NCBI GenBank assembly: GCA_035221665.1
Contig: CM069157.1
Location: forward strand, 18,042,001 to 18,106,000
DNA length: 64,000 bases
Origin: Okamejei kenojei
Lineage: Eukaryota
Reading direction: 5' to 3'
Positions within the stretch are counted from its first letter, which is position 1, and every line of letters starts with the position of its first letter. Positions 1-34,500 of this stretch are shown piece after piece. A program made the translations under genes and the position numbers. The notes beneath the pieces are model-generated. The model searched no databases and was not told where the DNA came from. It worked only from the letters and a program-made list of their open reading frames with translations.

Positions 1-135
1 CTTTTGCCTGCAATCACAAAATTCTGTTAGCTCGAAGATACAAATTTCATAGAAGTTCTGATGTTTCACAAAGTTTAGGTAGAAGTCAAAAACATTTTCT
101 TTTCGTCTTTGGGGGAAATCCTACAGATTGACGAT

Positions 136-277
136 CTTCTTCTTCTTGCGTATGGCTTGCACAGCCTAAAGTTGTAGGACAACTTGTTTTATTTGATCTT
201 ATTTGATTGTGCACGCCGGGTTGATTGCCTTCGTCAAAACAGGGTGGACCACGTGAAGGTTGCAATCTTCCACACCA
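136..277 (-). mobile_element. Short non-LTR retroelement with (AAG)n tail, possibly Ingi/Vingi-related
   Basis: 11-bp TSD agattgacgat at 125-135 and 278-288; minus-strand 3' end CCATACGCAAGAAGAAGAAG. Confidence 0.65.
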
Positions 278-1269
278 AGATTGACGATGAGCAAGTCAGA
301 TGAGTTGAAGAAGCTTTTCAACAGGTTCTGTGCCAATGGCACACCATTTCAGCTGACCCAACAGTGGACTTGGCCAGCGTTGGTCCAATGGGAGAGGAGT
401 AGTAAACACTGAAGATGAGGCACACCAACACTCTCTAACCAAACACACATGACAAATATCTGTTCTTGCCCACTCTCTCTTCCTCAGCTCCCTCTCCACG
501 CCCCGTCTTTCTCCATCTCTCTTTCCTGGTCCACCTCCCTCTCAGCTCCCACCTACTTTGCTCATCTTTTTTCTCAACCCTTTCCTTTCCATCTTGATTT
601 CCCCTTGCTCTCTATCTCTGCCACCACCACCCAACCCCAGCCCCCAAATCTCCATCTCCTGCTCAACAGCTCTATCCCAGTGTAAAGTTACTTCACCACC
701 ATTATTTACCCTCTTCTGGTTTTCTCCCTCATTACAATAAAAAACTTTTATGCACTTATTCACTGCATTTTCATAATTCCCTGGTTACTATTTCTAAACT
801 TGGTATTAGTATAATCAAATTACCATTTTCCACGCAACTAGAAAAAACAGGAAGCAACAAACATTAGATAAATTTGCAGCTCCTTCACCTCTATTTTATA
901 ACACCGTTTGAGCATTTGATTAGTATAAAACTGCTCTTGCATTACAGTACAGTATACCCTGTTATGGGTGGCACTGCCTTCCCAGAAAATGCTGCAATTA
1001 CAATGTTCTGAAATGGGAACCCTTGACAAAATCACCACAATTCATTGTTATTTTCACATTTTGTGTTTGTTTAGCTACTTTTCCGCACAAATTACATGAG
1101 AGCAAAATGTTCTCTATATCTTAAACGTTCTGGCAGTCACTTGTAAAGTCCATAAGGGGGAATTTTTTATACCCCATGTGCAGTAACATGGGGATACAAT
1201 CTAATATTATAATGTGGGGGGTACTGTACTGACTTTCAATACTTCTATCGATTTTCTGTTGGGTATTAC

Positions 1270-1503
1270 CTTTTCTGTTTCTTGTTGGACAGCTTTCGTT
1301 AAGGCACTGTCTACTTGTTTCTGAAGTTTCTCCGCACTTTGACTCAAGACTTTGTGCTGAGCCTTAACTTCCAATAGTTTTGTCTCAACTTTTGCCAATT
1401 CTTCAGTACCTAGCTTTCCCTCGTTCTCCTGCAATAAGTGTTCCGTGGCCTTGATCACATCCTCCACAGCAGCAGCGCGAGATTGCATGTCTTTTTGTAA
1501 TGC
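1270..1503 (-). CDS. MACF1: Exon, spectrin-repeat rod (ALQKDMQSR...AVQQETEK)
   Basis: tcttag|GCA...AAG|gtaata, 234 nt. Confidence 0.93.
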
Positions 1504-4500
1504 CTAAGAAGGAACATAACAGAAAAAATATTTTAATAGCCTTATTGTGAAAGAAGGCGCACAAAACAACACTGACAATCTAGCTACATGTACTTCATGC
1601 CCAAATCAAATCAAATTCCTGTAGCCTCCCTTACAATCAGTCTGAAGAAGGGTCTCAACCTGAAACATCGCCTATCCGTGTTCTCCAGAGATGCTGCCTG
1701 ACCTGCTGAGATATTCCAGAACTTTGTGTCTTTTTTTTCCCCATAAGCCAGCATCTGCAGTTCCTTATTTCTACAAATTCCTGTAGCCTTGTTTTAGGCA
1801 CACTTTATTTTAAGCAGAAGATGAATCCCACAATTATAGAGGCTTTTACCCAAGTAAACTTGCCCATTCTATTTTGGTTGTTGACTCACTGAGGCTACAG
1901 CCTGGTAAAATTACTCAAGTCATCCACTTCTCAACTGTACTTCTTATTACTGCGCGGTTGAGATGTAACTGATATTTATGTCCATGACAAAAGCAGTTCA
2001 TGGTCAACCAACTGCTGTTTTTTTTCTTAACATACGGAGCGGATTGATGAGGAAATTCAGAAAACTGTACCATATTTCCCATCTGCTGTTATGTTTTGAT
2101 GGAAGACAGCTACTATCCTGAGTTGAGAAGTGGAAAATATTTTTTATGATATCAGCTATACTTCTGCTAAATACCTGAATTTCATTTAAACCATCAAACT
2201 GGTGATCTAAAAGATATTTTAAGAACCACGTTTCAGTGATATTAAATTTCAGTGATGCATAGTTCCAAAAATGATGGCTCCACTTGTAAAAATGATTTAG
2301 CTAAAAGACCAAATATAGGCTTTATTGCACAGAATCAACAAAAAACAGTGTTGGAAAATTAATTATCTCTGCATCATCTAAAGTTTTAGAATGTTGTGCA
2401 TTAATTACAAAGGGCATATGGAATTATTTTACTGTTGGAGAAGAGCTAAATTGTTTTTAATGTTTTTATGTGCTTTCCATCATAAATAGTACTGATAAAA
2501 ACAGATGATCGCTTATTTCCTGAACAGCAGCTTCTTCGTGGTACATCATAAACACACTGCTACTTATATACCTCATCTCACGCTCTTCATGAACTTCCTC
2601 GGTCTATGAAACCATTCTCTAGCTTCAAGTATTTAACACAGCTTTCCTTTAAATGTACCAACACCAGTTAACATCCATGCATCTGGCAGCAGTTTAACCA
2701 GTTTCCGGATCAACCATGTCACCTAATCCCATCTCCCAAATATTATTGCATTTGGTCTTAACGCTCTGCTCATCCTTCCAATTTCTCTCACCCAGCTGGA
2801 ATCCAGCGCGGGCTGTTCCCCTGCTGTACTGGCTGGAGGCTGTAGTGTGCAGCTGCTGTTCCAAGTTGAAGCACATTCAGATTAAGTATTTACTTAGCTA
2901 CTGATCCACTCTCAGTTAAGGAATCTCCTGGAGTCATATTATGTAAATAGTAAATAATAAGTGCAATAAGTCTTGCAATGTATTTCGATGGAGCTGCTCC
3001 CATTCATTAGAACAGAACAATACAGGACAGAATGTCTGTGGTCAACACGATGCCAAGTTAAAGTAATCTCCTCTGCCTGCACGTCATCTATATCCCTCCA
3101 TTCCCTCAATATCTATGTCCCCCTCATAAATGCCACTACTGTATCAGCTTCCATCACCTCCCCTGGTGGTGTGTTCCAGGCACCCACCATTCCGTAAAAA
3201 AAAAACACAGATCACATTTAAACTTTGCTCCTCTCACAAAGCAATGCCCTCTAGTCTTTGATATTTCAATCCTGGGATAAAGATTCTGTGCCTTTCATAA
3301 TTGTTTTAATACTTCTATCAGGTCTCTCCTCAGCCTTAGACCTCGAGAGAACACAATCCAAGTTTGTCCAACCTTTCCTTATATCCAATGCCCTCTATTC
3401 CAGGCAGCATTCTGTTAAACCTCTTCTACACCCTCTCCAAAGCCTCTACATCTTTCCTGTAGTGTGGTGACCAGAACTAACTAGCTAACCAATGAAAGGC
3501 TTGGATAGAACAAACGTGGAGAGGATGTTTCCACTAGTGGGAATGTCTAGGACCAGAGGGCATACCCTCAGAATAAATGGACGTTCCTTTAGAAAGGAGA
3601 TGAGGAGGAATTGGAGGAATATAGGCCAAACACAGGCAGGTGGGTCTATTATATTTGGGGCAAGTTGGTCGGCCTGGGAATGTTGGGCCGAAGGGCCCTT
3701 TTCCACATTGTATGACCAAATCTAATGGTGAAAAAACAGTTTGAGTTAAGGCAAAAGCTAGTCCATTATTATAAAATTGGCTTCACAAACCTGAATCGCA
3801 CTCTGCTGCTCGTGAAGAGCTGGCAAGTCACACTCGCTAACTGCCACCTGGTGACTGGCCACCATGTTAGCTGTCTGGGCCAGCCATGTTCCAAGCTGAT
3901 CCAGCTTCTGCTCGCATTCCTCCTGCTGTTCCTGCCGCGTCTGCAACAAAACTAGAATGTACATTCCTTCTTTCCATTTATGTGCTTCTAATTCTCATAA
4001 CTGGCATTTTGAAATACAACTTAATGATGTCTATAGATCATCTCTGGCTGGGTGGACACAATAGATCCATGCAGGTTTTTTTTTTCATAAGCCAATAAAA
4101 CTTAAATTTTACTTGATTCAACTCAACCCAAAAACAATTGTCATGTAGTTGTGCAATTTGCCTTCAAATCACCTGAATATGTATGAGGCCCACAATAGTA
4201 TAACTTTAGATTTAGTCATTTATTTGAAATATTTAAGTTCTGAATGAGATTTAGAAAGCTAAGCTTGAGAGATAATAATCTGAGATCTATAAAACTAGAT
4301 GGATTCAAACTGGTTGATTAAATTTTAATGCACATGATTTCATGGCAGATGAAAGAAAATTGATGGGTGATGTTAGAATGCGCTGCGATATGCAGATAAA
4401 ATGCTTACATTACACACTCAGAATTCTGTGAACATTTGAATGAGCAATTTTCAAAGAGCTGCTTGAAATTAAACAGCAGTCACAAGCAAATAGTCCTCAT

Positions 4501-7500
4501 CTCCAGCCTTTAGATGGACTACAGATATCACATTATGAATTAGTACAATTGAGCAAGATGTGTCACAAATATACAGGGAAGCCACTGTGTGGAGATTTCA
4601 CGGAAATACATTATAGAAGCAGTGAAGAATCAGCTGTTATAGAACGACAATGACAAGAACTATTAGCATGTGGTCTCATGGTTAAAAACCACAGTTAACA
4701 CTTCAATGACCATTTTCAGATCCACTGCAAAGCATTATCTTCATTATGTGAGCCGTGGCGGTTAACGGAACATAAGTATCTGGAAAAAGCAAGGCAAAAC
4801 AGATTACAAGAATGACTCAAGGAACATTGGTTAGAGGGTTACTGAAAGCATTGCAACTGAAGACAGAGAAATAATCCACAGTCATTTCAGACATCACACT
4901 TACACACACACACAATACACACATGGCTGAGGCTACTGACTGGCATTAGATTAAAGGAGAAAAGATTCTTGGAGCAGCTTTATGAAGATACCAAACAGAC
5001 AAGTTGGACCATTGATGTGCCTTCATACCATGGACGGAAATTACATGGAATCTCTTAGATGTACTTGGTATGTCAGCTGTTTTGCCCAGTTCACATTAAA
5101 CTGTGCTAAAATCAGCAAGCGCACTGCCAACCAACGTTTATATCAGCTGAATACAGATCAACATATTTTCTTTCAAACAGCCAAGTTCCTTTATTTCTAA
5201 TTTAATTCAATTATTATACAAATCTATCTACAGGACCCCTGTCAAGGGTGCATGGAAACCCGCTCCTGGCGAGTGGCAAAGGAGAGGGGGATCCCGCTTC
5301 CCAGTGCGCAGACCTGGAAGCTGGAAATAGAGTCCCATCAAGTGCCCGGAAAGTGTAGGAAAGAGCTGCAAATACTGGTTTACGCAGAAAACAGACATAA
5401 AATGCTGGAGTAACTCAGCGGGACAGGCAGCATCTCTGGATAGAAGGAATAGGTGACATTTTGGGTCAAGACTCATCTTTAGAAGAAGGGTCTCGACCCG
5501 AAATGTCACCCATTTCTTCTCTCAAGTGGTCGGAAAGTGCAGGGACGGGAGTGCCAGCAAGATAACTGGGGCCTCAGTGCAAGGAGAGGAGCACAACCAT
5601 CAGGGAGCTGCAAGTGGCATGGGGCCACAGGAACTGGTGCTGATGCCAAAGATGCGGGATTTCCAAATTGTATAGTGGATTACAGTTTTATTTATGTATA
5701 TTCACTGCGTAAAGACTTTGACAGTAAAGCAACTTTTCAGCAAGTGGCTTAAAAGCTACAATGTCCGTTTTTACTTTTTCAGCAGTTTGCACTTGAATTA
5801 CAATTACTTGCATATCTTAATATTCATAATAACTAGGTTCTCATTTGTACCCATTGTCAGATAATGCATTAAATCACACCTGACATTTTGCTTTAGAAAT
5901 ATTTTCTATGGCTCAAAACGATGGTATTTTACATCTAATTGCTGGCTGGTCCAAACCTGCTTGGATTCCACAGACACGTTATCCTGAAGCTGAAGATCTG
6001 GTGTTGAAGTGCATGCCCCAATATTTTCAGAAATATTTCCGAATGACCCAAGTGGGTCATCTAATTGTTTATGCAACAACAAGCTGCTTTGTTGAGGGCT
6101 TGAGGCTTGAGCATGATCAGTATTAAAACGTTGGAAATCAAAATTCACTTCATCAATATCTGCTTTAGTGTGTGACGATGATCCCTTTAGCTCCTACAAA
6201 AAAGAATGGGAGGACTAATTGTAAACATGTCAAATAGCAAAAGCATACATTTACACTTTGTGATTAAATACTATGAGGATAGGAACAAAGATATTTTCTT
6301 GAAATAACAGTGATTTTGGCTCATTAAATTATGTAATTGCAAAGGAATTCTACATATTTGGAACGACAATTTTACTTAAACATCGATCTTATTTTGGCAT
6401 ATTCAGGTATTGGTGTCACATTCTCACTGTTCAAACCCTGTGCCTCATGCAGGTGATCAGCACAATGACACAGCTGGTGGAGCTGCTGCCTCACAGAGCC
6501 AACTGCAAACCACGTTCGATCCGGTCCTCGGAGGCTGCCCAAGTGGAGTTTGCAGGTTCTCCCCGTGACAATGTTGGTTTCCTCCGGGTGCCCCGACTTT
6601 CCCCCCACTTCCCAAAGACGTGCGGGTTTGTAGGTTAATTGACTGTAAATTAACCCTAGTGCGTACAGAGTGGATGCGAAAACTGGGGTAACATCGAAGT
6701 AGTGTCAATGGTTGATGGATGGCCAGTGTAGATTCAGTGGGTAAAAGGGCCTGTTTCCATGCAGTACCTCTAAAGTAAACTCATAGGGTAGTTATTGCAT
6801 CTTGCCAGGAGTTCTGCTTCCCCTAAAATTCAAATAATGACTACACCTACAAGTTATGATTATCTGAATTTTTTATTTTGGGGTTCCTGAAGAAATCAGC
6901 AAATAAAATAATGTGATCTACCTAATGGGAGAATGCAATGAAATTACTCAAGTGCCCAACTAGTTAAAATGGTATCCGTTAACCAAACACCTATTCAACG
7001 GAAAAACTAGTATTTCGACTTATGCATGATATTCAGAAACAGTCCTCACATATCTCAACTAAACAAATTTGAAACCTTTCTTTTACCTTTCCTAGCAACC
7101 AACTTAAATTTGTGGGTTCAGGCCCTCCTCAAAAATCTGAGTGGACCTTGCAGCTCTGATAGTACGCTGCCCACCCAAAGATGCCATCATGTGGAATGAT
7201 TTTAAAAACAGACGCCCAACTTCTCTCAAAGATTTTGGAAGAGAAGGGGAATAATCCCAAGAGTCCGGGCCAACACATACCTCAACAAACCAAATGAAAA
7301 ACAGATTGTCTAGTCATTTGGCTATTGCTATTTCTGGGTGCACGCTGCAGTATGTTCCCTACATGAGAACAGCAATTTCTAATGCAATTCATTTCCTGAT
7401 CACCTTGAATCCTAGAGGGGATGATAGAAGTATAAACCTCTCTTTAACTGGACTGTTTCTATTAGATCTCCACAACTGTCAACGTTCAGCCACATTTTGA

Positions 7501-10500: not shown

Positions 10501-13500
10501 AAATAGAATGCAATGCACAGTTTAACCATCAAAACTAAGCAAACTTTAAGGAAAAAAGTCCAAATCAGAATTCAAGGAAAGACACAAAATGCTGGAGTAA
10601 CTCAGTGGATCAGGCAGCATTCCTGGAGAATATGGATAGGAGACGTTTGAGGTTGGGAACCTTCTTCAGAAGTGACTGAAGAAGAGACCTGACCCAAAAC
10701 ATTAGATATCCATGGTCTCTAGAGATGCTGTCTGACATGCTGAGTTACTCCAGCACTTTGTGTTTTCCTTTGGTAAACCAGCATCTGCAGTTTCCAGTTT
10801 CTACAAAGCAGAATTGAGTTCTGATAAATGAATACCAATCATGACTATTAAGCATGATGGACTAACCTTTGCCACGTGCAATTGTTCAAGAAGCATCGGC
10901 AGGTTGTCAGCGACTGGCTTCTGTTGCTTCAGCCTGACCTCAATATCCAGCACATGAGACAGGTAAGAAACAAGATTCTTGTCATGTTCCAGGCATTGCT
11001 GCTTACCACATAAAGGCTGGTGACATAGGAAATAATAAATATATATATAAACTATAATTTCATGTAATTCAATAGAAATTATTTTTTTCAAACTACAACA
11101 CCGATTGATTTTTTGCATCTACAAAACTGTGGCCATGTGGATGATTTTGCACCACACTTGGAGTATTATGTTCTGTTTTGGTCACCCTGCTATAGAAAAA
11201 TATGGAATTAAGCTGGAAAATGTGCAGAAAATATGATTTGAGGATTTTGTCAGGATTCAAGTGCCTGAGCTGCAGGGAGAAGTTGGGCAGCTAGGACTAC
11301 TTCTTCGAGTGCAGGAAGGTAAAGGTTAAGATCTTAAGGCAGTGTATAAATTCATGAGCTGGATAGCTAGGGTGAATGCACATATTTTTTTTTCCCCCGG
11401 GATAGCGGAATCAAGGACTAGAAGGCATAGGTTTAACTCAACAAGGGAAAGATTTAATAGGAACCTGAGGGGGTGGCAACTTTTTCACACATGGTTGGGG
11501 ATTATATGAAATGATCTGCCAGATCAAGTTGAGGTAGGTACAATAACATTTATGACTATGATATCAGAAAGAGAGACTGAAGCCCAAAGTCCCACACCTT
11601 CAGGTTCAGGAACAGTTTATTTCCTATAATCATAAGGTCATAAGTGATAAGAGTGGAATTAGGCCATTCGGCCCATCAAGTCTACTCTGACATTCAATCA
11701 TGGCTGATCTCTCTCTCCCTCCTAACCACGTCCTCCTGCCTTCTCCCCATAACCCTTGACACCCGTACTAATCAAGAATCTATCTATCTCTGCCTTAAAA
11801 ATATCCATTGACTTGGCCTCCGCAGCCTTCTGTGGCAAAGAATTCCACAGATTCACCACCTAAAGAAATTTTAGAAATTCTAAAGAAATGCCTCCTCATC
11901 TCCTTCCTAAAGAAACATCCTTTAATTCTGTGACTATGACCTCTGGCCCAGGACTCTCCCACTAGTGAAACATCCTCTCCACATCCACGATCCATAATCA
12001 TCAAGTTCTTGTACAGACCTGCACAACCCTAATTCTACCTCATCAGACCACTACATCCCACCTCTTGCACTGTTGCTGACTTGTTCTCTAGATTTTGCAC
12101 TAATGTTTGTTTCTTTGCAGTTTTTTCACAGTTGTGCAATGCGCACAATGTGATTTTTGTGTGTTTGCCTGAGGCCATGTGCCTGTGATGCTGCTGCAAG
12201 CACCATTTGCATTATTCCTGCACTTCATACTTGTGCACATGATGATAAACTCATCTTGACTTGACAGATGTCAAACATCAGCTCTGTCACTGAAAATTAA
12301 CTTTACAAGACAGTCTTATGTACATTTTCCTTTCTTTACCCGACGTGACAATGTTCAATAATGTACTCATAATTCAGAGCCTTTGACTCTGTCAATCTGT
12401 TTGGATGAGATGATATACAGTAGCATGGTAACAAAGGTGACAGATGTATTGCGAACATCATAATCCATGATCTCCAATCTATATTCTATTGCAAAAAGAA
12501 AATCATTCAAAAGGGCTCAGCCAAATATGCAGAATGATACCCGACTGCAATAAACAACCTGGCCATTCCATTATTACAGATGTAATCAGAAGGTTGTATG
12601 CATATGGGGGAAGTGAGAAAATTCCCCTATCCTGGGATACTCTATGCTTTCATGCTTGCGTTCACTGGGTCAGGCAGTATCCCTGGAGATCATGGATAGG
12701 TGACTTCAGTCAGGACCCTTATTTAGATGGATGAAGAAGGGTCCCAGCCCAAAACATCACCTAACAATCTTCTCCAGAGATGCTGCCTGACTTGCTGAGT
12801 TTCTCTAACACTTTGTGTTTTCTTGTGTGAACCAGCATCTGCAATTTCTTGCACCCACTAAATACAGTTCATGATGTGTTTGCCTCAATAAACAAATTAT
12901 ATTGTAAGAACTTCAATTTTTTTAGCCAGCTTTGGAATGATAACAGGTCTCATATCTGACACCGAATTCAAGCCCAACTCTGTGAAAGACTGTTTTAATT
13001 AAGCCATCCTGCTTGGGGGATAAAGAACATCATCTATTATATGTACGATAGTACATTGTAGCCGACAAAATATAGATTTCACTTTTCAGCATTCATAGGA
13101 AGGGCATGTAACAACTTTCCCTAACAAGAAATTGAAATTTTCCTTGGTATTCCATCAAAATGCGATTAATGTTATACACTGAATCAGATCTTTTACTTTA
13201 ATAACATTTTATTCAGTTGTGGTAAATGTAGGAAATGTGAAAATGCCAAATTTCATCCTCACTGCTGTTTCATCTTTCACTGGGTTGTTATAACAAAGTT
13301 ACTTAAGTAATTTCTATTTCAAAAAGATTTTACATGCATTATACAAAGCAGCGAGGAAACAGATAAGAGTATCTGCACAAAGAGCAGTTGGAAGAAAGGG
13401 AGGATCTGGCACAAATTCAGCACGATGGCTGTGTGGAATAACAAGTGAAATAGTACAAAGCCTTCTGCAAACCTCAGAAAATAGTTATGACGATTTGCAT

Positions 13501-16500
13501 GGTCACATAGACCTTAATCAGACACTGGGAGATATGTCCAGAAGGGAGTATAATGTTGATTAGAGAATCTTATAGCACAGGAGACTACCATTCAGATAAT
13601 CATGCCTGTGTAGGCTCTTTGAAGTTGTTGTTTGAGCTATTAAAATAATTGGAGACATTCGCAAAGTCTAAAATACACTTACATTAATTTGTATTTCTTT
13701 TTTCTTCAATCCTATCCTCCAACCTGAACCAAATCATTCCCCAGCAATCTATTTGCTTTCCAACTACCTAATCTCTAGAGATAACATGGTTTTAGACTGT
13801 AAAATGATATGCAGTAAACAACAGATGATATAATTCAGAGTAACTTTTGCTCGATTTTGAATATAGAACAGATCAAACAGCTGTCTTGATGCAGAATTTG
13901 TTAGAAGAATCAAAGTTACCCCACCACAAGCATGTCCAACTGTGGTTCATCATATACTGAGTCTCATGTCAGTCTCTAATGGCTACTTCACTTGTAATGC
14001 TACTGATTTATCAGTAAAAAGCAACACTCAATTGGGTCATTTTAAATACAAGAATGCAAGTGAGTAGGTGAAAAAAACCCCACCAAAATGTGGCCTTTTC
14101 TTGGATTTCCATTTTAACTGAATTGTGCCTGTGCAGAATTGAGTATCAGTTTCCCAAAATTAAGTAAGCATTTTCAACCAGTTAACAATGGTTTACAAAA
14201 TGTCCCTTTTTGAAGGCCAACAGTAAAGATAAAGTTCATCTTTATTCATGGGATAGAGATCTCATTTCAGATGTCTTAGTTAGTCTTTATTTCCAATACC
14301 TTGAAAATGAAACATTAATGCTTTCATTCCATTCTCAATACTACATTTATGATCAATTTAAATTTTGTTCTTGGGATACCCAGTATTTCCTAATTATTTC
14401 CTAAATATCTGAAACGAATGCATGAGTTAAGGAAATGCAACACTGCAGCATGTCATTAAATCGTAAATAAAGACCTTGGAGCAGTCAGTTATCCCATCAA
14501 TTGACTTTTTCCATCCCCTGTCCCCAACTTGACTGAACAACATTTACAAGAATGCTCAACATCAAGTTTGGAAGCAGGCTTTCAAAAGGGGAAAGTTGTA
14601 CCAGGCCACTGCTGTTTACCTGCAGAGACTGGTACAGACCAGCATTCAAGGAAATCATCCGTCCTCTCAATTGGGTCAAAGCAATCAAAGGATGTGAAAA
14701 GACAGAAATGTAAAAATAATTATAATGTTTAAAGAAGAATGATCCAATTTGCTTACCTGTATTTCAGTTATTACTTCTTGTTTGTCCTCAGTATCGTTGT
14801 TGATAATCCGTCCTTGTTCATTCAAGACCATAAATGTTGGTTCATCAATCTGTTTCTGCAGGAAGTCTTCGTTTATCATCACTGGGCTACTTTTATTCTC
14901 CTCTTCAAAATTAGAATTCAATTTATTGTCCAAGATAGGCTGGATACATTCTGTCAATTCATTTTTTCTTTGTTCTTCTGCAACTTTTATTGGTTCACAT
15001 CTTTCATTTATCCTCAAGTCGACCACATCTCTGGATTTGGCATTTGGTTGCTTGCCTTCTGAAAGCATTGCCATGTTTTCACTGTTATCAGACCTTTTTA
15101 TAGGCATCACCAACACATTCCGTTCACTTACAGTTGAAACTTTATTTTCATCTTCTGACATTCTACCTGCTGATTTTCCATCTTCAGTTACACTGCCCAG
15201 TTCCCTGACTTTACCATCTGGTTCTTCATTACATCCAACATGTTGGACCATTTCAACAAAAGACTGCGAATTCACCTGAACTTTCGTGAATTGATCTTGC
15301 AGTGGTCTCCTTTATTTGTTGTAAAAGCATTCTTCCATCATCCTTATTTTTCGACATGCTCCCTCCTAATCTTTCATAATTCATTGTTTGTTTAGCCGTT
15401 TCCTCACTTTCGTTCAGTAAGTAATCAGGAAGTTCTTTCCTACTTGACAGTGTATGTGTCCTTGCATCTAACTTGAATTCGTTCATTCCACAATCCATTG
15501 TCAAATACAATGCCTTGATCACTCTCATCCGTCACATCGTGAGAAATCACCATTTGTTTTTCATCAGCAGAATGATCCTTCTTTCTTTTCACAAAAATCC
15601 TTTCATCAGTTCTTTCCAAACTCATAACATCTTGCACATTCGCCATAACATCGAAGCCATCCTTTGAATAATTATCAACCTCCATTTCCTCCTCAACCAT
15701 TCGTCCCACATTGCTTACGTTTGTTTCTCTGTCCATATACACCATTTCTTCAGGGGCTAATATAGTGGGGATATTAATTTTTTCTTTGTTCTCACGTACT
15801 ACATATTTCATATCGACAGACTTCAGGGATAGTGAATTCTTTGTACCAGGTGTTCTTTCTACCAGTAGTCCTGATGATAAAGACACTGGGTTGTCATGAG
15901 AATTAGGCACTTTGTTTTTATAACTGATAACTGGATTTTCATCCCTAATCCTCAAATAGGAGCTCTTTTCCATTCTTGGAGATAATATCTGACTCCCTTC
16001 GTTTGCGAGTGTCCCGTCGAAAGATGTACTTGGTACAAATGGCATAATGAATTTTTCCATCTCTATATTAGAGCCCAGGTCAGGATCAGAATATTCACCA
16101 GTCGATCCGACATTGGACTGGATTTCTTCAGCCATTTTAAGGCTTATCAGACCATTGTCAACCGCTTGAAGCAGTGGAACTCTCTCTCCAGTGAGAGGAT
16201 CAATTACTCCTCCGTCCAAAAGCTGATTTGTGACAATAATCTCAAACATATCATCATCCAGTAGCTCACATTGTGCAGCTTTTTGCAGTGTCATCCTGTC
16301 ACCAGTGGTACTGTCTACAATCCCACCACTGTCAGCCTGGGCTTGCAGCAGTCTCATGGCAGCGACTGGGTCCACTTGCCTCATTTTTACTGCTTCAGCA
16401 AGTGTTAAGTTCTTGCCTGTTAGTTCATCTCGGATACCTGTGAAATATCTGGCTTCCATATATCTCTGGCCCGATTCCAAGTCTATTTTTCCCTTTTTAA

Positions 16501-19500
16501 TTAGCTCCGAGTAAGGTATTATCCTACACTGCTGAGGATCTACAATTCCTCGATGCTGCTCGGAGCACATTGCTTTTGTCAGTGCAGATGTTCTTCCTTG
16601 ATTAGTATCTTGTGTTAATGTCAGATTTTCGGAAGCTACCGGCTCCTTAAGGCTTCTACTCCAGGCTTGAGTTTCTTTAGTTTTGAAAGCAAATGCAGTG
16701 TCCTCTAGATCTAATGATGCTGCATCAGATAAATTAATTGGCTCCATAGTCTTTGGATGGATATATGCCTGCTGACAAGCTTTCTCCACTTCAATCAATT
16801 CGCTTGCTATATCCTGATCAATCAGACCGCATTTAACAGCATCCGTCACGGAAAGTCTCATTCCTGACAGGTGATGATTAATTCCCCCAAAGGCCACCTG
16901 CTTTTTCAAAATGGTAAGCACGGCTTCTTTATCAATGATTCCCCTCTTTCTTGCTTCAACAGCTGTTATGCGTTCTTTTGTTTGTGGGTCCAGTATGCCA
17001 TTCATTTCCATTTGTAAAGAAATCATGCGTAGTTTTGTGTTTTCATCCGATTCTCTTCCCTTTGTGGCCTTTTCTAGCTTGATCAAATTATCCAGATGGA
17101 CATTATCCACTAAGCCCATTTTTGATGCTAGAGTCACTGATAACTGTTTGCCTCGTTTTAAGTCGATGATCCCACCAGAGATGACTTGTCCCTCCAGGAC
17201 TCTTGCTGCAGTTTCTTGATCCAGAAGCCCTACTTCAGCTGCATCCTTGACTGAACGCACAGAAGTGCAACCTGGAGAGATGACCCCACAGATAACTTTC
17301 TCAGAGTTCAAGATCTTCCGAATCATCTGTTCGTTCACCAGACCCTCATCTACTGCCTCAGCCACCGACACAGTTTCACAAGTCTGTGGATCAAAGAACC
17401 CACCGAAGATGGCCAGTTTTTCCACTAGTTTGAGGGCAGTGTGGCTTGGAAGCACTCCCCTGGTCACTGCTTCATTCAGTGCTAGTCTCTGGCCTGTCTG
17501 TTCGTCAACGACACCACCATTTTGAAGCTGGTCAATCAGAACATTTAAAGTGGATTCATCATCCAAATAGTCTTCTCTTGGCTCTGACATTATTGGCAAT
17601 TCCTGGCATTGGAAATATTTAGCAGGATCATTTACTTCAGGATTTTGCTCACCACTATGCAATTCTGCAATTTTCCCTTTTAAGGACCCATTCACATTGC
17701 CTTGGCCAATTCCATTTTTAATATCACACGATGTTGGTCCAATGCTGCTAACACTTACGACAGCTTTGGCTCCATTATTTAGTATTACACCACACTGAGT
17801 CTCTTTCAATGACCCGTGAACTGCTGATGTTGGAAAACCTACAACTGAACTGGTTGAGGTAATATGAGAGTCTGGCAGATGGAATGCTTCAACTGTCTGC
17901 AAAACGATGGCTTCTTCCTCAAAACATTTATGGTTGACTTGATCCTGTGAAGTGGATTGAATTTCTACATCACTTATTGTATAATGAGAAGTTTCAGTAA
18001 CTATGCTAGACATATTTGCTTTCTGTGATCCTTTTGTAGATTTTTCAGCAACATTTGATTCTATACTAATTACACTTTCAAATTTAGATTTGCCGCGCAG
18101 TATTTTCAGTTTTTCTTTTTGACCATTTTCATATTCCGTTGTGTCCAGTTCCTTTCGAACTGCTTGTTGTTCATTAGTTACAATATCCTTGCAACAGATT
18201 TCAGTTTTATATTTTTTTTCTTCAGAGGCTGGAAAATCCACATTCTTCTTTAAAGGCATTTCCTCACTGTTTCTAATTTCCTTAATCCATCCATCTGATT
18301 GTCTTTCATACATTCCATAACCAGCTTCTATCTTATCACTTGTTTTAGAGCTGTCATTTTGTTTTAATGTTAGCTTCTCTGGATGGTATAATTCAGTATA
18401 ATTTGTGGTGGTATCATATTCTTTATTGCATTCTTCCAACGTTTTTTTACTCTTCAAAACTGCAGTGTTTACTCTTGCTTTTATGAATTCTTTAGTGATG
18501 TCATTCAACTTGGCATCAATCAAAAGCAATCTGTTACCATTATGCACATTCATATAACTTTGTGCCATTAAGAAAGACAATAGCCTTTCTTCTACCATTT
18601 GACTATGTGAGACTGGTGCATTGGTGTCAGCAACCAGGGATTTCAGACTGGAATTTGGCAGCATTCCACCAGCCGTCCTCCAGTTCAATCTGTCTACAAT
18701 TGGAAAACCAGGTTCTTTCATATTTGGCATCGCATCTGGAATACAAATTGACTTCAATACTTCAGCAGCTTTGTCGTCTAAAATTCCTTGCTCAATTGAT
18801 TCTTCCCAAGACATTACCTCAGTGGTTTCGGGGCAATAAAGTTCTGATATGGTGGGTCTCTTCTTCAGGATTGCATGTGCGAGATCAATGGAGACAAGAC
18901 CCTGTTGCACTGCACTGGCCACAGGAAGGACTTCACCAGATTTTGGCCACAGCAGTCCCTTAAAGGACAGCTGTGACTCCAGTACAACCAATGCGCTTCT
19001 CGGAGTCATCAAATCCCGCTGTACAGCCTCATCCAGAGTCAATCGCTGAGCTGAGACAGGATCGATAATACCGCCCGTCTGGATTTGACGAATTAATATG
19101 GAGCAAGCTATATCATGATCGATGAGATTATGTCTCACTGCTTCATCCACTGTTAGACGGTGCCCTGTTCTCGGGTCTACGATGCCACCTGCAAACAATT
19201 GTGCCTCTAAAAGTCTGACCATCACCTGTTGGTCTATCAAGCCCTCTTGGATAGCACGGAATAAGCTGACCTTCTTTCCAGATTTCAGACATATCATCCC
19301 ACCGGCAAGTTGCTTTATTGGAAATAAAGTTAATCCACTTTCTTTATCTACAATGCATCGCTGTATCAGTTCTGAAAGTCCAAGCTTTTCTCCCGTGTTA
19401 GGATCAATCAAACCTTTCTGTACTCTTTGTCTAGCCTTCATCTTAGAGTGGAGGGATGCACTGATCAGGCCCAGTTGGAAAGCTTTCTCTAGATCCACAG

Positions 19501-22500
19501 CTTCAGCTGTTGGTAGTTTTCCAAAGCCACAGTTAAGCTGGATCTCCAAAATCTTCAGTCCCACATTCTCTTCAATTTTCTTCTCTTCAACAGCAGCAGC
19601 CACAGGAAGAAGTGTATTGCTTTTAAAATCGGTGCTTTTCAAGAGCTGTGCGGCAGCCTGCAGCTCTTTCAAGAGTTTAGCTGTTCGATTATCTATCGCA
19701 CCTCTTTCTAAAGCTTGTTCCACCGTCAGGTATTCACGGGTTTCAGGAATAAGGAGGCCAGAATTAATCACTTGAATCTGAAGCAGGGCAAGGCCTGTGT
19801 CTTGGTCTATAAAACCCTTCTGCATGGCACGGAAAATTGAAAAGATTTCTACTGTTCCCAGGTCAATCACACCTGCAATTGTTTCATTCTCCTGGAAAAT
19901 GTAAATCACAAGTTAAGTCTCTGAACTTACAGCAACCGATAAATCTGCAGACATCCTTGTAAAATATAAACAGATTATTCTACTAATATTAGTTTTATTT
20001 TTTTTGAACTGTTCTCAACAGAATAGGTTTAAGGTTTAGGTTTATTATTGTCACATACACAGATGTACAGTGACAAGCTTATACTGTAATTATCTATACA
20101 TAGCTAATTACTAAATTTGGGGATGGAGAAGCAAAATAAATAAATAGGCCTCAGAATTGTAGTTTAGAAAAAAAGGTTGTAATTCATGAATTTGGTTTTT
20201 AACTGGTTTACAATTGACAATCACTTTCATTTGCATGACTTTGTCAAAAAGTGTTGAATCAATTTTCTTATTGTGGTGCCAAATTTTACATTTGCATCAA
20301 TTTTGCACTTGCAGTTTTGAATTTGGCATGAAATTTCCACTGCAAAGTAATAAATTCACACCATCATCTCGCTAATCTCCAGTTAATTAACTGATGTTGA
20401 ATAGCTCGGTGCCAGCTTTTATACAGCCTTGAAAATAGACTCATGCACGAAATGAATGTGCATCAATGCATGTCAATGGGCATTATGTGCAGACCTCCCT
20501 GAACTGGTACAACATCGAATTAACCCTGGTGCTATTTCATCCCTTTAACTGTTTGTGTATTCGTAGGACACTTAGAAATTATGGATATAATTGTGTACCT
20601 CCAGATACATAACGTGACTATTAACATAAAAGAGGATCGCAAAATAACCTGGCAAAGAGGCCGTAGTCATTCAGCTCTTTGAACCCGAGCCAGTTCTTTT
20701 CAAAAGAAATGTAATTGTCTCACTGCCCAGTATTTTTCCTGCATCAGTTAAATTTATTTTGTTTTCTCTCAAGTATTTATACTGTTGCCATTCAAAGCTA
20801 TTTTTGAATAGACACCCTTCATTGCATTTGAAAACTTAACTGACTACTTTGAAAAACATTTTTGCTCATCTTGCAATATATTAAAGCTATAAGAAATCAC
20901 ACCTTTTAGAAATAATTGGAAGAATGTCATTTGGAACAAATGTGGAACAAATAATCTTGGTTTCTGATAATCATGTTCATATGTTCTAGGAGCAGAATTA
21001 GGCCATTCGGCCCATCAATTCTACTCTGCCTTTCAATCACGGTGATCTATCTTTCCCTCTCAACCCCATTCTTCTGCCTTCTCCCCTTAGCCCCTGACAC
21101 CCTTACTAATCAACAAAAATCAATCTCCACCTTAAAAAAACCATTGACTTGGCCTCTGCTGCCGTCTGTGGCAGGATCTATGGGCCAATTATATTTATAG
21201 CAATAATGGCCCTCTCTCTTAACGGGAGCCATCATTTACAATATATATGTCAAGCTGCACTGACTGCAAAATTATACATTTTCCTTCAATGATTAATGTA
21301 GCAAACTTCTAAAGTAAAGACGTCATGCACACAGTAATGACGGTATCGGCCTTTTAAAAACTGTGAAGGAATTCAAGAACCAGACATATTATTCACAGAT
21401 ATTAGACAGTGTACAATAGAATGAATAATTTCTGCAATACCTCTGAACTTGTGGTATCATGGGACAGAAATACAGTAAGCATAACATTTTGCACAAAAAA
21501 AGCAAGCAACACAGCAGACATAAAGATGATATTGTCCAGACAAAATGCTTAGTAAAATGTCTGCACTTCTGTAAAATATGTAAATCTTTGAATTCATAGT
21601 TGTTTAAAGACTTCCTGAATCATTATGGGTATTAGATTTAGACAGCAGAAACAGATTGTGTGAAATGTGGTACTGTTTTCAGAACTGCTTATTTAACGCA
21701 GGCTAACCCTTTCAAAAAGAAATCCAGATCACTATCAAAATACAAAGCATCTCGAATTTCACAACATTTTTCGTAACATCTGCTACTTAGGACAGCTTTA
21801 AAGCTACGCTCACAAATGGTTCTGCTGAATCCTGACGTTTCAAGTCATTAACAAGATGGAAAGGAAATAAGGTAAGAAATCAGATATTGTTTTCTCCTGG
21901 TCTATGGACTGAATTTCATTTCTTTCTACAGACTAAACAATAGACTTCTATATATTTTACATTTCACATGGATAGTTACTTATTGCGTTAGGAATGTTAA
22001 CCTATCTAGTTCAGTAAGTGAACTGGATTAGTGTATTTGTTTTTAATAGCATTGTACATGATTTCAATCATTTCATAATTAGATTCCTATAACGGAACTG
22101 AGACTGTGCACATGAAAATGTTCCATTATTTGTTCCCCATCCCCTTTTAATTTTAGTTAATTTACAAAACAATAAAGAGGTTGGATAGACATGGATTGTT
22201 TTCTCTGGAGTGTTGGAGATAGAGTACAGAACATAAAATTATGAGAGGCAATGATAGGATACAGTCAGAACCTTTTTCTCAGGGTGGAGATGTCCAACAC
22301 TAGATAGCACAGCTAGAAGGTGAGAGGGGGAAAGCTTAATAGAGATTTGCAGGGCAAGTCTTTACACTGAGGGTAGTAGGGGCCTGTAACACACCTCCAG
22401 AGGCGGTGTTGGAAGCAGATAGGATAGTGGTGTTTAAGAGGCTTTCAGATAGGCACATGTAAGTGCAGGGAATAGAGGGATATGGATCATGTGCAGACAG

Positions 22501-25500
22501 ATGAGATCCGTTTAACTTGGCATCATGTTTGGCACAAAAATTATGGGCTGAAGGATCTATGCTGTAGAGTTCTATGTTTGATAATTCCTGAACCAGAAGA
22601 TAAACACTTAACCTGCTCCTTCTCCTTGCATACACTGATTTTGTTGACCACCTTGTGAGAAAGCACTGGCATTTCCTCCAATTCTAGACATGTGATATTG
22701 CTGCCCACTCTAATGGATGCGAGGGGAGATTGTCATTAAGTGTAGACTTGCCTGAAGGCTTTTAGGAGGGCATTTGTGTAGTTAATTCGAGCAACATCAT
22801 GAAACAGTTAAATGTTCCTTTTAGGACATGATGGATTTGCAGCTCCGTTGAAACTCAGATCAAAGATGTCTGACGTTTATTATGAGTTTTGTTTTGTTCA
22901 TTATTGTCTAATATTTTAATTGGAGTTAGAGTTACAAAGGACAAATACAGAAACATAACGAAGATTTAATATAACACATTGAGTACAGAAGAAGACAAAA
23001 ACATTTACTTACCAGCAATGGCGGCTTGCCAGTGGCAAAAGCAGAGCTAATGCGAGTATTTCAGCAGTATCACACACACAGTGTAAGCTTGTTGTTAGGT
23101 CCAGCATGCGCCGTTTATAGGGATATTTGATATCAAATTTTAATCCATCTTCTATTTGAGAATGGTTAGTTTTTGAGTTGTAAGCAAGGATGCTGGTTAA
23201 TTTGACATATTTATTCACAATTCATAGTGACACATCATGCTCAACTGGTCATGGAAATTCATAATTGATAATGATCGCACTATGCTGTTTACAGCAAGCA
23301 AAGGTTATACCACACTTCAAACATGGGTTCCCTTCCACAGTGAAGCATAAAAGACACAAAATAAACATTTACTTTTTGCCTGAATAATACAGGCACGGCA
23401 GGTTAGAAGATAAATTGATTTGAGATAAATAACCAAAAGCCTTTAAAAGATACTGAAATAGGTCAATAAATTTGTGGTGTGATCACATTAAAATCTAAAT
23501 GATATTTGCCATTTCACAGTGCATCACTGTGTACAGGCAACATTACATATATATATATATATATATAATATATATATATATTTTACACACACACATATAT
23601 ATGTTGTCCTAGATGATCGGAAAGAAATTTTAGAAAACAAGGAAACAAGGACAAGGAAACTTACTGATTTACACCAAGTACACACACACACACACACACA
23701 CACAGTCATGGGCAGATGAAGCAATATACAATGAACATGAGGTCTCAACAAATTCAGAATATGTTTCTCAGGCAATGCATCGTCTTCTCATTGGGTGGAA
23801 ATGATCATCACTGTGATTTATAAGATATGCTCTGCATTACTCAAAAATTTTTGGATTAAACCATAAAACTAGGATCCCATTCTCTCATCTCGGGTGAACG
23901 CAAAAGATTCCAGGGCACAAATCAAAGAAAAAGCAGAAAATTTTCCATCACGGAAACCATTAATACAATTTAACGTTGCTTCTTTCAGACTATCGTACAT
24001 AAATGAGCTCATGAGAAAACTGACGTATAAACGGAAAATGTTGGAACCTATCAGCAGGTCAGGCTCATCTTGACATGCTGAATGCTGCCAGCATTCTCTG
24101 CTTATATTTCAGATATCCAGTATCTGCAGTTTTATGATTTACACTTCAAATGTATCTGGCTCCACGTAAAACACCCCAAGACTGAAAATAGCAAAATTGT
24201 CTTTCATCTTTATTTACTCAAATAAGGCTATTTGATCACTGATTTTTGAAATAGAAATATTTATATTCCAAGTCAGATTAGCTTAGTGATTACCTTGTTT
24301 AAATCCTCACAATATATTAAGCACACACTTGTGCATGCGCCTAGACGAGGCAAAGCATAAATAATTTACCCCAATATGCAGCAGATTGAATTGGAGATAA
24401 TTGGCTGAGAAACAAAACATTGTCTTCAAGTGATGAGTAGTCTGATGTATGTGTGAGTAATGAAGTTCGTGCTATTACAGGTAAAACATTCCATGCAGTG
24501 TAATTTATGTTCATACATTCACAATTGCATTCATACATTGATTCATGCAGGTCAAATTGTCAAAACATTGATATGATAAAAACATTGAAAATATTAACTT
24601 CTGGCAATGTCCTAGTCCTTCAAAGTGTACCTTTCGTTGCACTTCGTGAGTGAGCTTGTTTTGCAGCTGCTGGAGCTCTGCTGCAGACTCGTCACACAGT
24701 TTCCCATAGGTTTCCTTCAGTGTGTTCAACTGTGACGTCACCTGTTGCTGTTCTTCTGGAGATATTCTGTGAAACCAAACAGTTCAATATTTATAAATTA
24801 AGATGGTCAAGGGACCGGTAAAGGGGAAAGGAAATCAGATTCTTAACTATTAAAACAGAATTTTTCAAAAATGTGTTTCTTTCTTAGATTCTACAGTGCC
24901 CTCCATAATGTTTGGGACAAAGACCCATCATTTATTTATTTGCCTCTGTACTCCATAATTTGAGATTTGTAATAGAATTAATCACATGTGGTTAAAGTGC
25001 ACATTGTCAGTTTTTATTAAAGGGTATTTTCATACATTTTGGTTTTACCATGTAGAAATTACAGCTGTGTTTATACATAGTCCCCCCATTTCAGGGCACC
25101 ATAATGTTTGGGACACATGGCTTCATAGGTGTTTGTGATTGCGCAGGTGTGTTTAATTGCCTCCTTAATGCAGGTATAAGAGAGCTCTCAGCACCTAGTC
25201 TTTCCTCCAGTCTTTCCATCACCTTTGGAAACTTTTATTGCTGTTTTTCAGCATGAGGACCAAAGTTGTGCCAATTAAAGTCAAATAAGCCATTATGAGA
25301 ATAAAACTGTTAGAGACATCAGCTGAACCTTAGGCTTACCAAAATCAACTGTTTGGAAAGAGTTAGTTCAGAAGAAAGAAAGCACAAAGGGACTGGCAGG
25401 CCAAGGAAGAGCTCCACAGATGATGACAGAAGAATCCTCTCTATAATATACATAAATTCCCAAACACCTGTCCAACAGATCAGAAACACTCTTCAGGAGT

Positions 25501-31500: not shown

Positions 31501-34500
31501 CTCGCTCAACACAGGTAAATATACTTCACATGTCAATTTACTTATATGCATCATGGCTCAGAAAACAAGAAAATCTCCTATCAAAATAGGAGATTTCCTA
31601 TTTGTCATCTTACAATTTTCACTCTTTTCATCTTACAATTTTAATGAAAAGTACATAGGTCATAGAATATACGTAAATGTTGCATAAATAAATATATTTG
31701 GCGAGAAGACAATAAAAAAAGTAAAATTGGTGTATCAATTTGGTTTATCGTTATCAGAAAAGGTTTTAGGTTTTTTCTTTGACAGAACAATATGCTAACT
31801 ATGTCAAATTAACAATAAAAATGCAAAACTGCATATGCCTGGAATCAGTTTAAAAAGTAGTATTTTTTTTAAACACTAGAAACAAAACAAAGTATTTACT
31901 TAACTTTGAGGGCAAAGGAACAACAATAAAGCTAAATATGAAGATAACTGAAAATAGCCTGGATTTAGGAGGGAAACGCTGCCAGTTTTGCATGGAATGC
32001 TGACATTTATTTGTGCAGGTGCCAATGTTCAGTAGTCCCGAGTGATCAAGGAAGTCCCAAAATTACAGGCCAGCAACTTTCCTGGCCGCAAGGCAGGAAT
32101 GTTGATGAGGTCCAATGGCAGAGTTCCACCTTGCTGAGATTCTCCAGTCATGCTATTTTGTTGATCTGAAATGCTAATTCCGTTTCATTCTTCACAGATA
32201 CTGCCTAAGTTGCTGATCATTTACAATAATCTATTCTTATTCCATATTTCCAACACTTGCCGTTATTTATTTTTAATTTCATTTTCTCTTTTATCTCTAC
32301 CTCTCCTGTCATCTCTGACCTCAATCATTCTTCTCATATAAACCAGTAATTTACTTGCACTATTTTCACTTCAGTGTTTTAAATTCGCTGCCTAAAAAAT
32401 GTTACACATGGGGATTGGAATGTTTCAGTTCAGATCAGGAGCATGGCCATGTGTTCCAGTCACTGGTCATTGTAATTATCGCTCTTCCTGACTTCCTTGT
32501 TCTTGACCCCCTACATTGTTCCAAATAAGCTTAACAGTAACCTATAACTAACTGAGCCTTAACCTCAACTGAAATCTTCTACAGCCTTCCAGATTGAACA
32601 CAAAATTAAAATATCTCAGTCAATCCAGCATTTTAATTCCAATTCCTTTTACATGTATTCAGTAACTTATTATTGCACATTTACACCTCCTATAGATTTT
32701 TAAATCGGTGCTTTCGCGTCCGTCCATTTGAATCTTTACTATCCCCCATCCGATCGCAGACTTCTTCCCCTCTCCTTCCCCTGTCCTTTTTGTGCATCTT
32801 AAAATCTGACCTCCAAGCATTGCCAGTTCTGGTGACAGGCAAGCAGTTTTTGACATGTTGAAAACTGTTTTTAAGCTGCATGTAAAATATTACACACGGA
32901 GAAATAAAATAATAAGCAATAAGCATTTTCTGGTTTGCACTTTTAGTTTGCACTATGTGAAATATTTTGCAAAGATGACATTGAGGAAAAAAAAATTCCT
33001 TGCAATGCTTGATACACAAAATCAAAGGTGCAATTGATTCCCAAAACCTTTCAGTTTCAATGTTTATGGGTTGGCAGCCAGTGAGGGGAGAAATGGGAAC
33101 ATAATTCTGATAAAAATTCTCCATTTGAAATATTAGCTTGCCTTTACCCTACCTGGATTGGTTATGCATTTGAAGGATTATCTGTTGTAAAGGCCAGCTT
33201 TTCATCACATGCAGTTTTACTTTTTCTCTCGATAATTCACGTGGCCAGACATAGGTGTGTGCGTACCTGCTGCTCACTGAACGACTGCTCAATGGTTTCC
33301 AGGCCCGCTGCTTCTGGTAAAACATTCTTATTTTTTCGGATCTGATCCGCGTTCAAAACCCAGCATAAGAGTTCCTTCATTTTTTCAACATGTTCCTGCT
33401 TTTCCTCCTCGACAATTTTCTAAACTCAGCAATATAAAGAAAAATATGCATTGCTGAAAAGGATGATTAAACATACTCAGTTCAACTAGTTAAATGCAAC
33501 AGAATACATGCTCGAACAGAGAAATCTCCCAGGGTTCTGGGGTGTGGGCAGGGTGATGAAACTTTGTGGGTAGCCTTTAAGCAAGCTGGGTCAAGTGGTA
33601 ACATCTGGATTGCAATTCCACAATTTACATTGTGATTGTGCCACTGTGTTACTTCATCTCTTTTGTAATTTTGCAGATCCCAGACAATGGATCGAAAAAT
33701 GCAATGGGCTGTAATCCTTACTCCAAGTGATATGAAAGTAACATACAAATGTTGCATATTTGTTGTCATTGAAAATCAAAACTTTCTAAAGTTCTCACTG
33801 AACTTGAAATATCCGTGCATTTTCTGAATCATATCTCCCCTTTCTGCTAATGGTCTTGTAAACTGCACAGGACATCAATTCGGCAGATCAGATGTGACAC
33901 TCACTTTGGGAGTTGTGATTGAGGCCCTTCACCCATCAATCGCCTGCCCTCCCAAAAGAGAATCTATCCATTTCATTGTCCATGTTCATAGTTCTATGAC
34001 TCAAACTAGTTCAAAAACAATGAGACTTACACACACACACACAAGGACACACACACACTTCCAATGTATGTGTTAAACAGTCAATGCCTTTGTTTGGAAT
34101 CAAAAAGCTCTTTGGATATATTTCCTAACTGCATCAATATAGTTTCTATAATTAATTTATAAAGAGATAGTTTTAGCCTACTTCAAATACACTAGTGTCC
34201 AAGTCTGTTTAAATCCTTTTAAAAAAATCTTTCCTAATTTCTTAGCCCACTTACCTCCTCTTCTTCCAGCCGCCTCAAAGCATCACTGATGTACTTCACA
34301 TGTTGAGTTGTTAGAGTCACCAGTGCAGTGTATTGTGTTCTGAGATCCATGAACTATAGAAAGGATAAGAAGCTACTAAATATTGACAAAACGTGAAAAC
34401 GTGCAATTAAGTTTACAATGTAGGTGTCTGAAACAAAAAAGATCCTTGGTGATGTTGAACAAACTTCTCTCACCTCTTGGGTTATGACATCCGATGATGA

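What the first reader, a model, noticed from the sequence alone, without database searches (positions are those of the whole stretch)
14757..15550. Giant plectin-repeat exon is broken near its 3' end: truncated plakin+PRD isoform, hidden exitron, or assembly error
Seen: acceptor 19891 to donor 14757 is 5135 nt (3n+2), while both neighbouring exons need phase 0. The frame is open for about 4.45 kb and stops at TAG 15440. Similar E/K/S-rich protein continues in a second frame (15253..15528) and then a third (open from about 15310 to the donor), equivalent to two +1 shifts within about 250 nt, just after both PRD clusters. Known: in MACF1b this exon is read through into the spectrin rod and the EF-hand/GAR microtubule-binding tail. 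Inference: (a) a lineage-specific MACF1 product ending after the PRDs, architecturally like plectin/BPAG1e/desmoplakin with no microtubule-binding tail; (b) an in-frame exitron, e.g. CAA|gttaga (15472) or ATG|gtgatt (15550) to ttcag|GTG (15276), removing 197 or 275 nt and restoring 3n; (c) consensus indel errors.
Basis: partly seen in the sequence, partly recalled or inferred. Interest (0 to 1): 0.72.

Follow-up and report, generated by a model that had tools for sequence, protein, structure and literature searches.

The report
Assembly typos in a MACF1 exon
The apparent break in this giant exon of the cytoskeletal linker gene MACF1 comes from two extra single letters that are in the reference sequence but in none of the public sequencing runs compared, so it is most likely an assembly error and the gene is ordinary.

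Summary
The break is not in the animals' DNA as sequenced elsewhere. I laid 8 of 24 listed runs: 4 labelled as the best-matching species and 4 other species, 7 studies. 8 of 8 lack one letter at ~15269 and one at ~15509; both places are AA pairs. Without them the exon is 5133 nt, 1711 codons, no stop, in frame with the next exon. Two spliced contigs carry the whole exon joined 14757 to 11016 with no exitron skip. Both proposed exitrons would break the frame in the run-supported sequence. One of 9 other plakin giant exons in this assembly has a similar one-base break. Verdict: consensus insertion errors (~0.94) in an ordinary MACF1b-type exon. A private allele of the assembled animal is not excluded (~0.05), as only contigs could be laid. 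An earlier scan note reports such errors at another locus of this genome.

The parts
14757..19891 (-). Giant plakin-repeat-domain (PRD) exon of MACF1, the MACF1b-type exon; 5135 nt in the window, 5133 nt in runs X1 and X4
   Evidence: 12 plectin repeats PF00681; spliced contigs in X7 and X8 cover it end to end (table 8)
15509..15510 (+). AA pair; one letter is absent here in every run laid (first spurious insertion in reading direction)
   Evidence: One letter left out at 15507-15509 in 8 of 8 runs (table 4); window letters. That the missing letter is one of the two A is inferred from the reported places
15269..15270 (+). AA pair; one letter is absent here in every run laid (second spurious insertion)
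   Evidence: One letter left out at 15268-15269 in 8 of 8 runs (table 4); window letters
15440..15442 (-). TAG that ends the first frame; out of frame once the extra letter at ~15509 is absent
18473..19888 (-). First PRD cluster
   Evidence: tblastn of MACF1-named P0013, 53% over 472 aa
16064..17557 (-). Second PRD cluster
   Evidence: tblastn of P0013, 49% over 504 aa
10867..11016 (-). Next exon (150 nt, phase 0), start of the rod that follows the PRD exon
   Evidence: Joined directly to 14757 in contigs of X7 and X8 (table 8); matches P0013 residues 3078-3138
24631..24766 (-). Preceding exon, ends in phase 0

Best explanation
The window holds two single letters (at ~15269 and ~15509) that are absent from all 8 public runs laid, and they are most likely consensus errors of the assembly in an otherwise intact MACF1b-type exon. 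Shown: without them the exon is 1711 codons with no stop and is spliced whole to the next exon. Inferred: each error is a one-letter run called as two (A to AA), the usual residual error of long-read consensus; the real product is full-length MACF1b that reads on into the spectrin rod.
For: 8 of 8 runs laid (of 24 listed) have both one-letter gaps, each in the single contig that covers the place, depths 8-59: X1, X4, X7, X8 (organism A, 3 studies) and X10, X13, X16, X17 (organisms B-E, 4 studies). Leaving out both letters gives 5133 nt, 0 stops; leaving out only one gives 25 or 33 stops. Every other gap listed inside the exon is a multiple of three (12 nt at 18618 in X7/X8; 9 nt near 14786 in X13/X16; 3+3 nt at 14881-14885 in X13), including those downstream of the TAG, as expected if the frame is kept to the donor. 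X7 and X8 contigs run 19893..14757 then 11016..10866 with no letters between and 14 gap letters (12+1+1). The equivalent stretch in 8 of 10 MACF1-like proteins is 1690-1794 aa, against 1711 here. A similar +1 break lies in 1 of 9 other plakin giant exons of the assembly.
Against: Only Logan contigs could be laid, no raw reads, and contigs drop rare or second alleles. Whether any run is from the assembled animal is unknown; X1 and X4 differ from the window by 17 and 21 letters over ~7.3 kb, X7/X8 by 67 over 5.1 kb, so the window's haplotype itself may not have been seen. 8 of 9 control exons (~48 kb in all) are unbroken, so such errors are rare here, and the closeness of the two insertions is not significant by itself (P about 0.09). 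In one search, 6 gap rows were not shown.
Confidence: 0.94

Rival explanations
1. The assembled animal really carries a private allele with two one-base insertions; it would knock out the b isoform only (the exon is skippable), most likely through nonsense-mediated decay since the stop lies ~680 nt before the donor.
For: No raw reads of the assembled animal were seen; the window has other private differences, e.g. a substitution at 14796 that differs from 8 of 8 runs.
Against: Needs two independent insertions on one haplotype only ~0.3% from X1/X4; neither insertion appears alone in any of 8 runs; both sit at AA pairs; another +1 break occurs in a different plakin gene of the same assembly.
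Confidence: 0.05
2. An in-frame exitron (15472 or 15550 to 15276) removes the broken stretch.
For: On the window's letters both removals give 3n and no stop.
Against: In the run-supported sequence the removals are 197 and 274 nt and would leave 3n+1 and 3n+2. Spliced contigs of X7 and X8 keep the stretch; no joint in 14650-16050 in any of the 4 runs. The proposed acceptor has a pyrimidine fraction of 0.38 against 0.57-0.86 for 4 correctly placed real acceptors (a fifth was misplaced by two letters and dropped).
Confidence: 0.005
3. A lineage-wide MACF1 product ends after the PRDs, like BPAG1e or plectin.
For: Precedent exists in the family through dedicated terminal exons: BPAG1e and VAB-10A (PMC3352950, passages).
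Against: The stop is out of frame in 4 of 4 runs of organism A and 4 of 4 other species; transcript-like contigs splice on to the rod exon.
Confidence: 0.005

Closest known systems
MACF1b (Lin et al., as reviewed in PMC4914211 and PMC3352950; passages read)
   Same: Plakin domain exons, then one large exon with plakin repeats, then the rod; two PRD clusters 44-58% identical to bird and mammal MACF1-named proteins; exon-equivalent length 1711 aa against 1690-1794 aa.
   Different: Nothing real found; the linker after the second cluster has no significant similarity to tetrapod MACF1, as expected for a fast-evolving region. The EF-hand/GAR tail lies outside the window and was not examined.
DST/BPAG1b giant exon (paralogue, taken to be G000:C5 ~23.08-23.11 Mb)
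   Same: Giant phase-0 exon with plectin repeats, one open frame of 2670 codons.
   Different: MACF1-like proteins score lower on it (33-38% against 42-50% at the second cluster, 11 of 11), and it is preceded by BPAG1e-like rod and terminal PRD exons. The DST label is inferred from architecture; no DST-named protein was compared.
Residual homopolymer-length errors of long-read assemblies (PMC8812927, PMC12007338; search listing and start of abstract only)
   Same: One-letter length errors that create frameshifts and premature stops.
   Different: Those papers concern small genomes; the sequencing method of this assembly is not known to me.

Membership tests
MACF1b isoform exon | [quoted passage not shown] | tested here: met
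   Exon order by tblastn; 12 PF00681 stretches
MACF1b isoform exon | Orthology to MACF1 rather than DST or plectin | tested here: met
   MACF1-named hits 41-47% against plectin 22-28%; higher on the window exon than on the C5 paralogue. No tree built, no DST-named protein compared
MACF1b isoform exon | Read through in frame into the rod | tested here: met
   Run-supported sequence is 1711 codons, no stop, spliced to 11016; not met on the window's own letters
MACF1b isoform exon | EF-hand and GAR tail on the same transcript | not tested
   Lies beyond the window; the contigs continue 446-474 letters past 10866 but were not followed
MACF1b isoform exon | Five PRDs of types A, A, C, incomplete B, incomplete A; Golgi targeting | not tested
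   Described in PMC4914211; PRD types not assigned here
Exitron | Internal intron within a coding exon with junction support | tested here: not met
   Spliced contigs keep the stretch; no joints; contigs cannot exclude a minor form
Exitron | Frame-preserving length and a usable acceptor | tested here: not met
   197 and 274 nt in the run-supported sequence; pyrimidine fraction 0.38
PRD-terminated plakin (BPAG1e, plectin, desmoplakin type) | Conserved stop after the PRDs in a terminal exon | tested here: not met
   Stop out of frame in 8 of 8 runs; exon has a used donor
Assembly consensus error | Absent from independent sequence of the same and related species | tested here: met
   8 of 8 runs
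Assembly consensus error | Absent from raw reads of the assembled individual | not testable with these tools
   Only contigs were served for the runs laid, and the source individual is not known

The most novel reading that the evidence does not exclude
The assembled animal carries a real, private allele that truncates only the MACF1b isoform just after its plakin repeats, a natural isoform-specific knockout or a plectin-like short product in one individual.
Probability: 0.05. Interest if true: 0.25.

Novelty: not a real feature. Interest (0 to 1): 0.04.

Why it matters
It matters only as a correction: gene models built on this assembly will truncate or skip the MACF1b exon, and one-base breaks in long exons of this genome should be checked against reads before being read as biology. 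A small by-product is that spliced contigs show the full MACF1b-type exon included in transcripts of this fish group.

Tried and rejected
No RNA holder was listed as such; X7 and X8 are labelled 'RNA? (probably DNA)', and I read them as transcript-derived only because their contigs skip the 3.7 kb intron exactly at the splice sites and leave intron bins uncovered. The protein search was limited to 2597-5000 aa, so no full-length MACF1 or DST and no shark or ray orthologue was returned; 120 of 187 hits were shown. Pfam found nothing in the second and third frames, and blastp found no tetrapod match in the linker, so homology could not place the breaks. In the length comparison 2 of 10 proteins were dropped: P0018 (wrong first match picked, 987 aa) and P0020 (no match to the next exon); the range 1690-1794 rejects the 1483-aa form but separates the exitron forms (1646, 1620 aa) only weakly. 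Clustering of the two insertions is not significant (P about 0.09). Programmed ribosomal frameshifting or editing was considered and dropped, since DNA-type runs already lack the letters. One literature search (MACF1 + skate + spectraplakin) gave 1 paper, PMC8782857; its passages do not mention a truncated MACF1.

Full report
Observation. The exon runs from the acceptor at 19891 to the donor at 14757 on the minus strand, 5135 nt, 3n+2. Its first frame is open for 1483 codons and ends at TAG 15442-15440; a second frame is open 15531..15256 and a third 15311..14688. The exon before ends in phase 0 at 24631 and the exon after, 11016..10867, begins in phase 0. Two +1 shifts are therefore needed to read through.

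Gene identity. The exon holds 12 plectin repeats (PF00681) in two clusters, at about 19888-18473 and 17557-16064. Among 120 listed hits of 187, proteins named MACF1 match residues 950-1483 at 41-47%, plectins at 22-28%. MACF1-like proteins align exon by exon along the window from the plakin domain to the rod. The genome holds a second locus with a giant PRD exon on C5; 11 of 11 MACF1-like proteins match the window's second cluster better than that locus (42-50% against 33-38%), and C5 has BPAG1e-like rod and terminal exons in front, so I take C5 as DST and the window as MACF1. This is by best match and architecture, without a tree. [quoted passage not shown]

The decisive test. One search listed 24 runs, 20 holding the stretch. 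I laid 8 of them, all as Logan contigs. In one search (organism A: X1, X4, X7, X8; at most 4 samples, 3 studies) every run has one letter left out at 15268-15269 and one at 15508-15509. In one search (organisms B, C, D, E; 4 studies) every run has one letter left out at 15268-15269 and one at 15507-15508. In each run the gap is in the one contig that covers the place; no contig with the window's form is listed. The window reads GAAT at 15268-15271 and CAAT at 15508-15511, so both gaps fall at an AA pair; that the missing letter is one of the A is inferred. Leaving out one A at each gives 5133 nt, 1711 codons and no stop, in frame with the next exon; leaving out only one leaves 25 or 33 stops. 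The other gaps listed inside the exon keep the frame: 12 nt at 18618 (X7, X8), 9 nt near 14786 (X13, X16), 3+3 nt at 14881-14885 (X13). The last two lie downstream of the TAG, where a dead stretch would have no reason to keep frame. Six gap rows were not shown, but the X7/X8 totals (14 gap letters = 12+1+1) leave no room for others in the exon.

Splicing. Contig 17 of X7 covers 19893..14757 with letters 29-5151 and 11016..10866 with letters 5152-5302; contig 24 of X8 shows the same junction (table 8). Intron bins 13526-14467 have no cover in these runs. The tool labels them 'RNA? (probably DNA)', but an exact intron skip marks the contigs as transcript-derived (inference). The main spliced form thus includes the whole exon and goes on into the rod. 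The proposed exitrons restore the frame only on the window's letters; in the run-supported sequence they are 197 and 274 nt and would break it, and their acceptor is poor in pyrimidines, 0.38 against 0.57-0.86 for four real acceptors. Contigs drop rare forms, so a minor exitron is not formally excluded.

Length. The stretch between the start of the first PRD cluster and the next exon is 1690-1794 aa in 8 of 10 MACF1-like proteins (2 dropped, see Tried and rejected), against 1711 aa here, 1483 for the truncated reading and 1646 or 1620 for the exitron readings.

Control in the assembly. Of 9 other giant plakin exons (about 48 kb; DST-like b exon, rod and tail, desmoplakin-like, two envoplakin/periplakin-like, plectin-like rod and tail, epiplakin-like; names by resemblance), 8 are one open frame and 1 is broken: on C23 (L018 ~2845) a collinear match to its paralogue L019 moves from frame +1 (aa 11-272) to frame +2 (aa 267-1120), again one letter too many. 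No reads were laid there. These exons were picked by plectin-repeat hits, so this is not a genome-wide rate. An earlier AI note on this genome (e1-9007574) reports one-letter breaks read as errors in an MHC class I gene; I did not check it.

What remains open. No raw reads were served and I do not know whether any run comes from the assembled animal. X1 and X4 differ from the window by 17 and 21 letters in about 7.3 kb, X7/X8 by 67 in 5.1 kb, and one substitution (14796) is private to the window against all 8 runs. A real private allele with two insertions is therefore possible, about 5%. It would need two independent events on a young haplotype, and its stop, ~680 nt before the donor, would likely trigger nonsense-mediated decay (recalled rule), so it would not give a plectin-like protein in quantity. 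One-letter length errors are the common residual error of long-read assemblies (PMC8812927, PMC12007338; start of abstract only); the method used for this assembly is unknown to me.

Verdict. Not a real feature: two consensus insertions in an ordinary MACF1b-type exon (0.94). Interest 0.04. No supplements were read; none bears on the claim.

Noticed in passing
L018:2844-2846 (G000:C23 ~31380845): Envoplakin-like terminal exon with a one-base (+1) frame break in a collinear match to its paralogue L019; probably another consensus error, no reads laid.
   Followed up: partly
window 18618-18629: 12-nt in-frame gap in X7 and X8 but not X1 or X4; with 67 letter differences over the exon, the 'organism A' label seems to cover diverged populations or species.
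   Followed up: no
window 14786-14787 and 14881-14887: 9-nt in-frame insertion in X13 and X16 (and the loose end of X17), and 3+3-nt gaps in X13, near the 3' end of the exon.
   Followed up: no
window 14078 and 14796: One further window-only letter in an intronic C run (absent in X1 and X4) and a substitution that differs from all 8 runs; errors or private variants.
   Followed up: no
L014 and L015 (G000:C5:23076001-23106000): DST-like locus with BPAG1e-like rod and terminal PRD exons followed by an intact ~7.9-kb giant exon that matches both MACF1b PRD clusters.
   Followed up: partly
G000:C2:~364800-379900: Plectin-like last exon with an open frame of 5048 codons, holding about a dozen near-identical ~984-nt PRD repeats, far more than the six PRDs of mammalian plectin.
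   Followed up: no
G000:C549:~33400-41000: Epiplakin-like open frame of 2544 codons with 1230-nt tandem repeats on a small contig.
   Followed up: no
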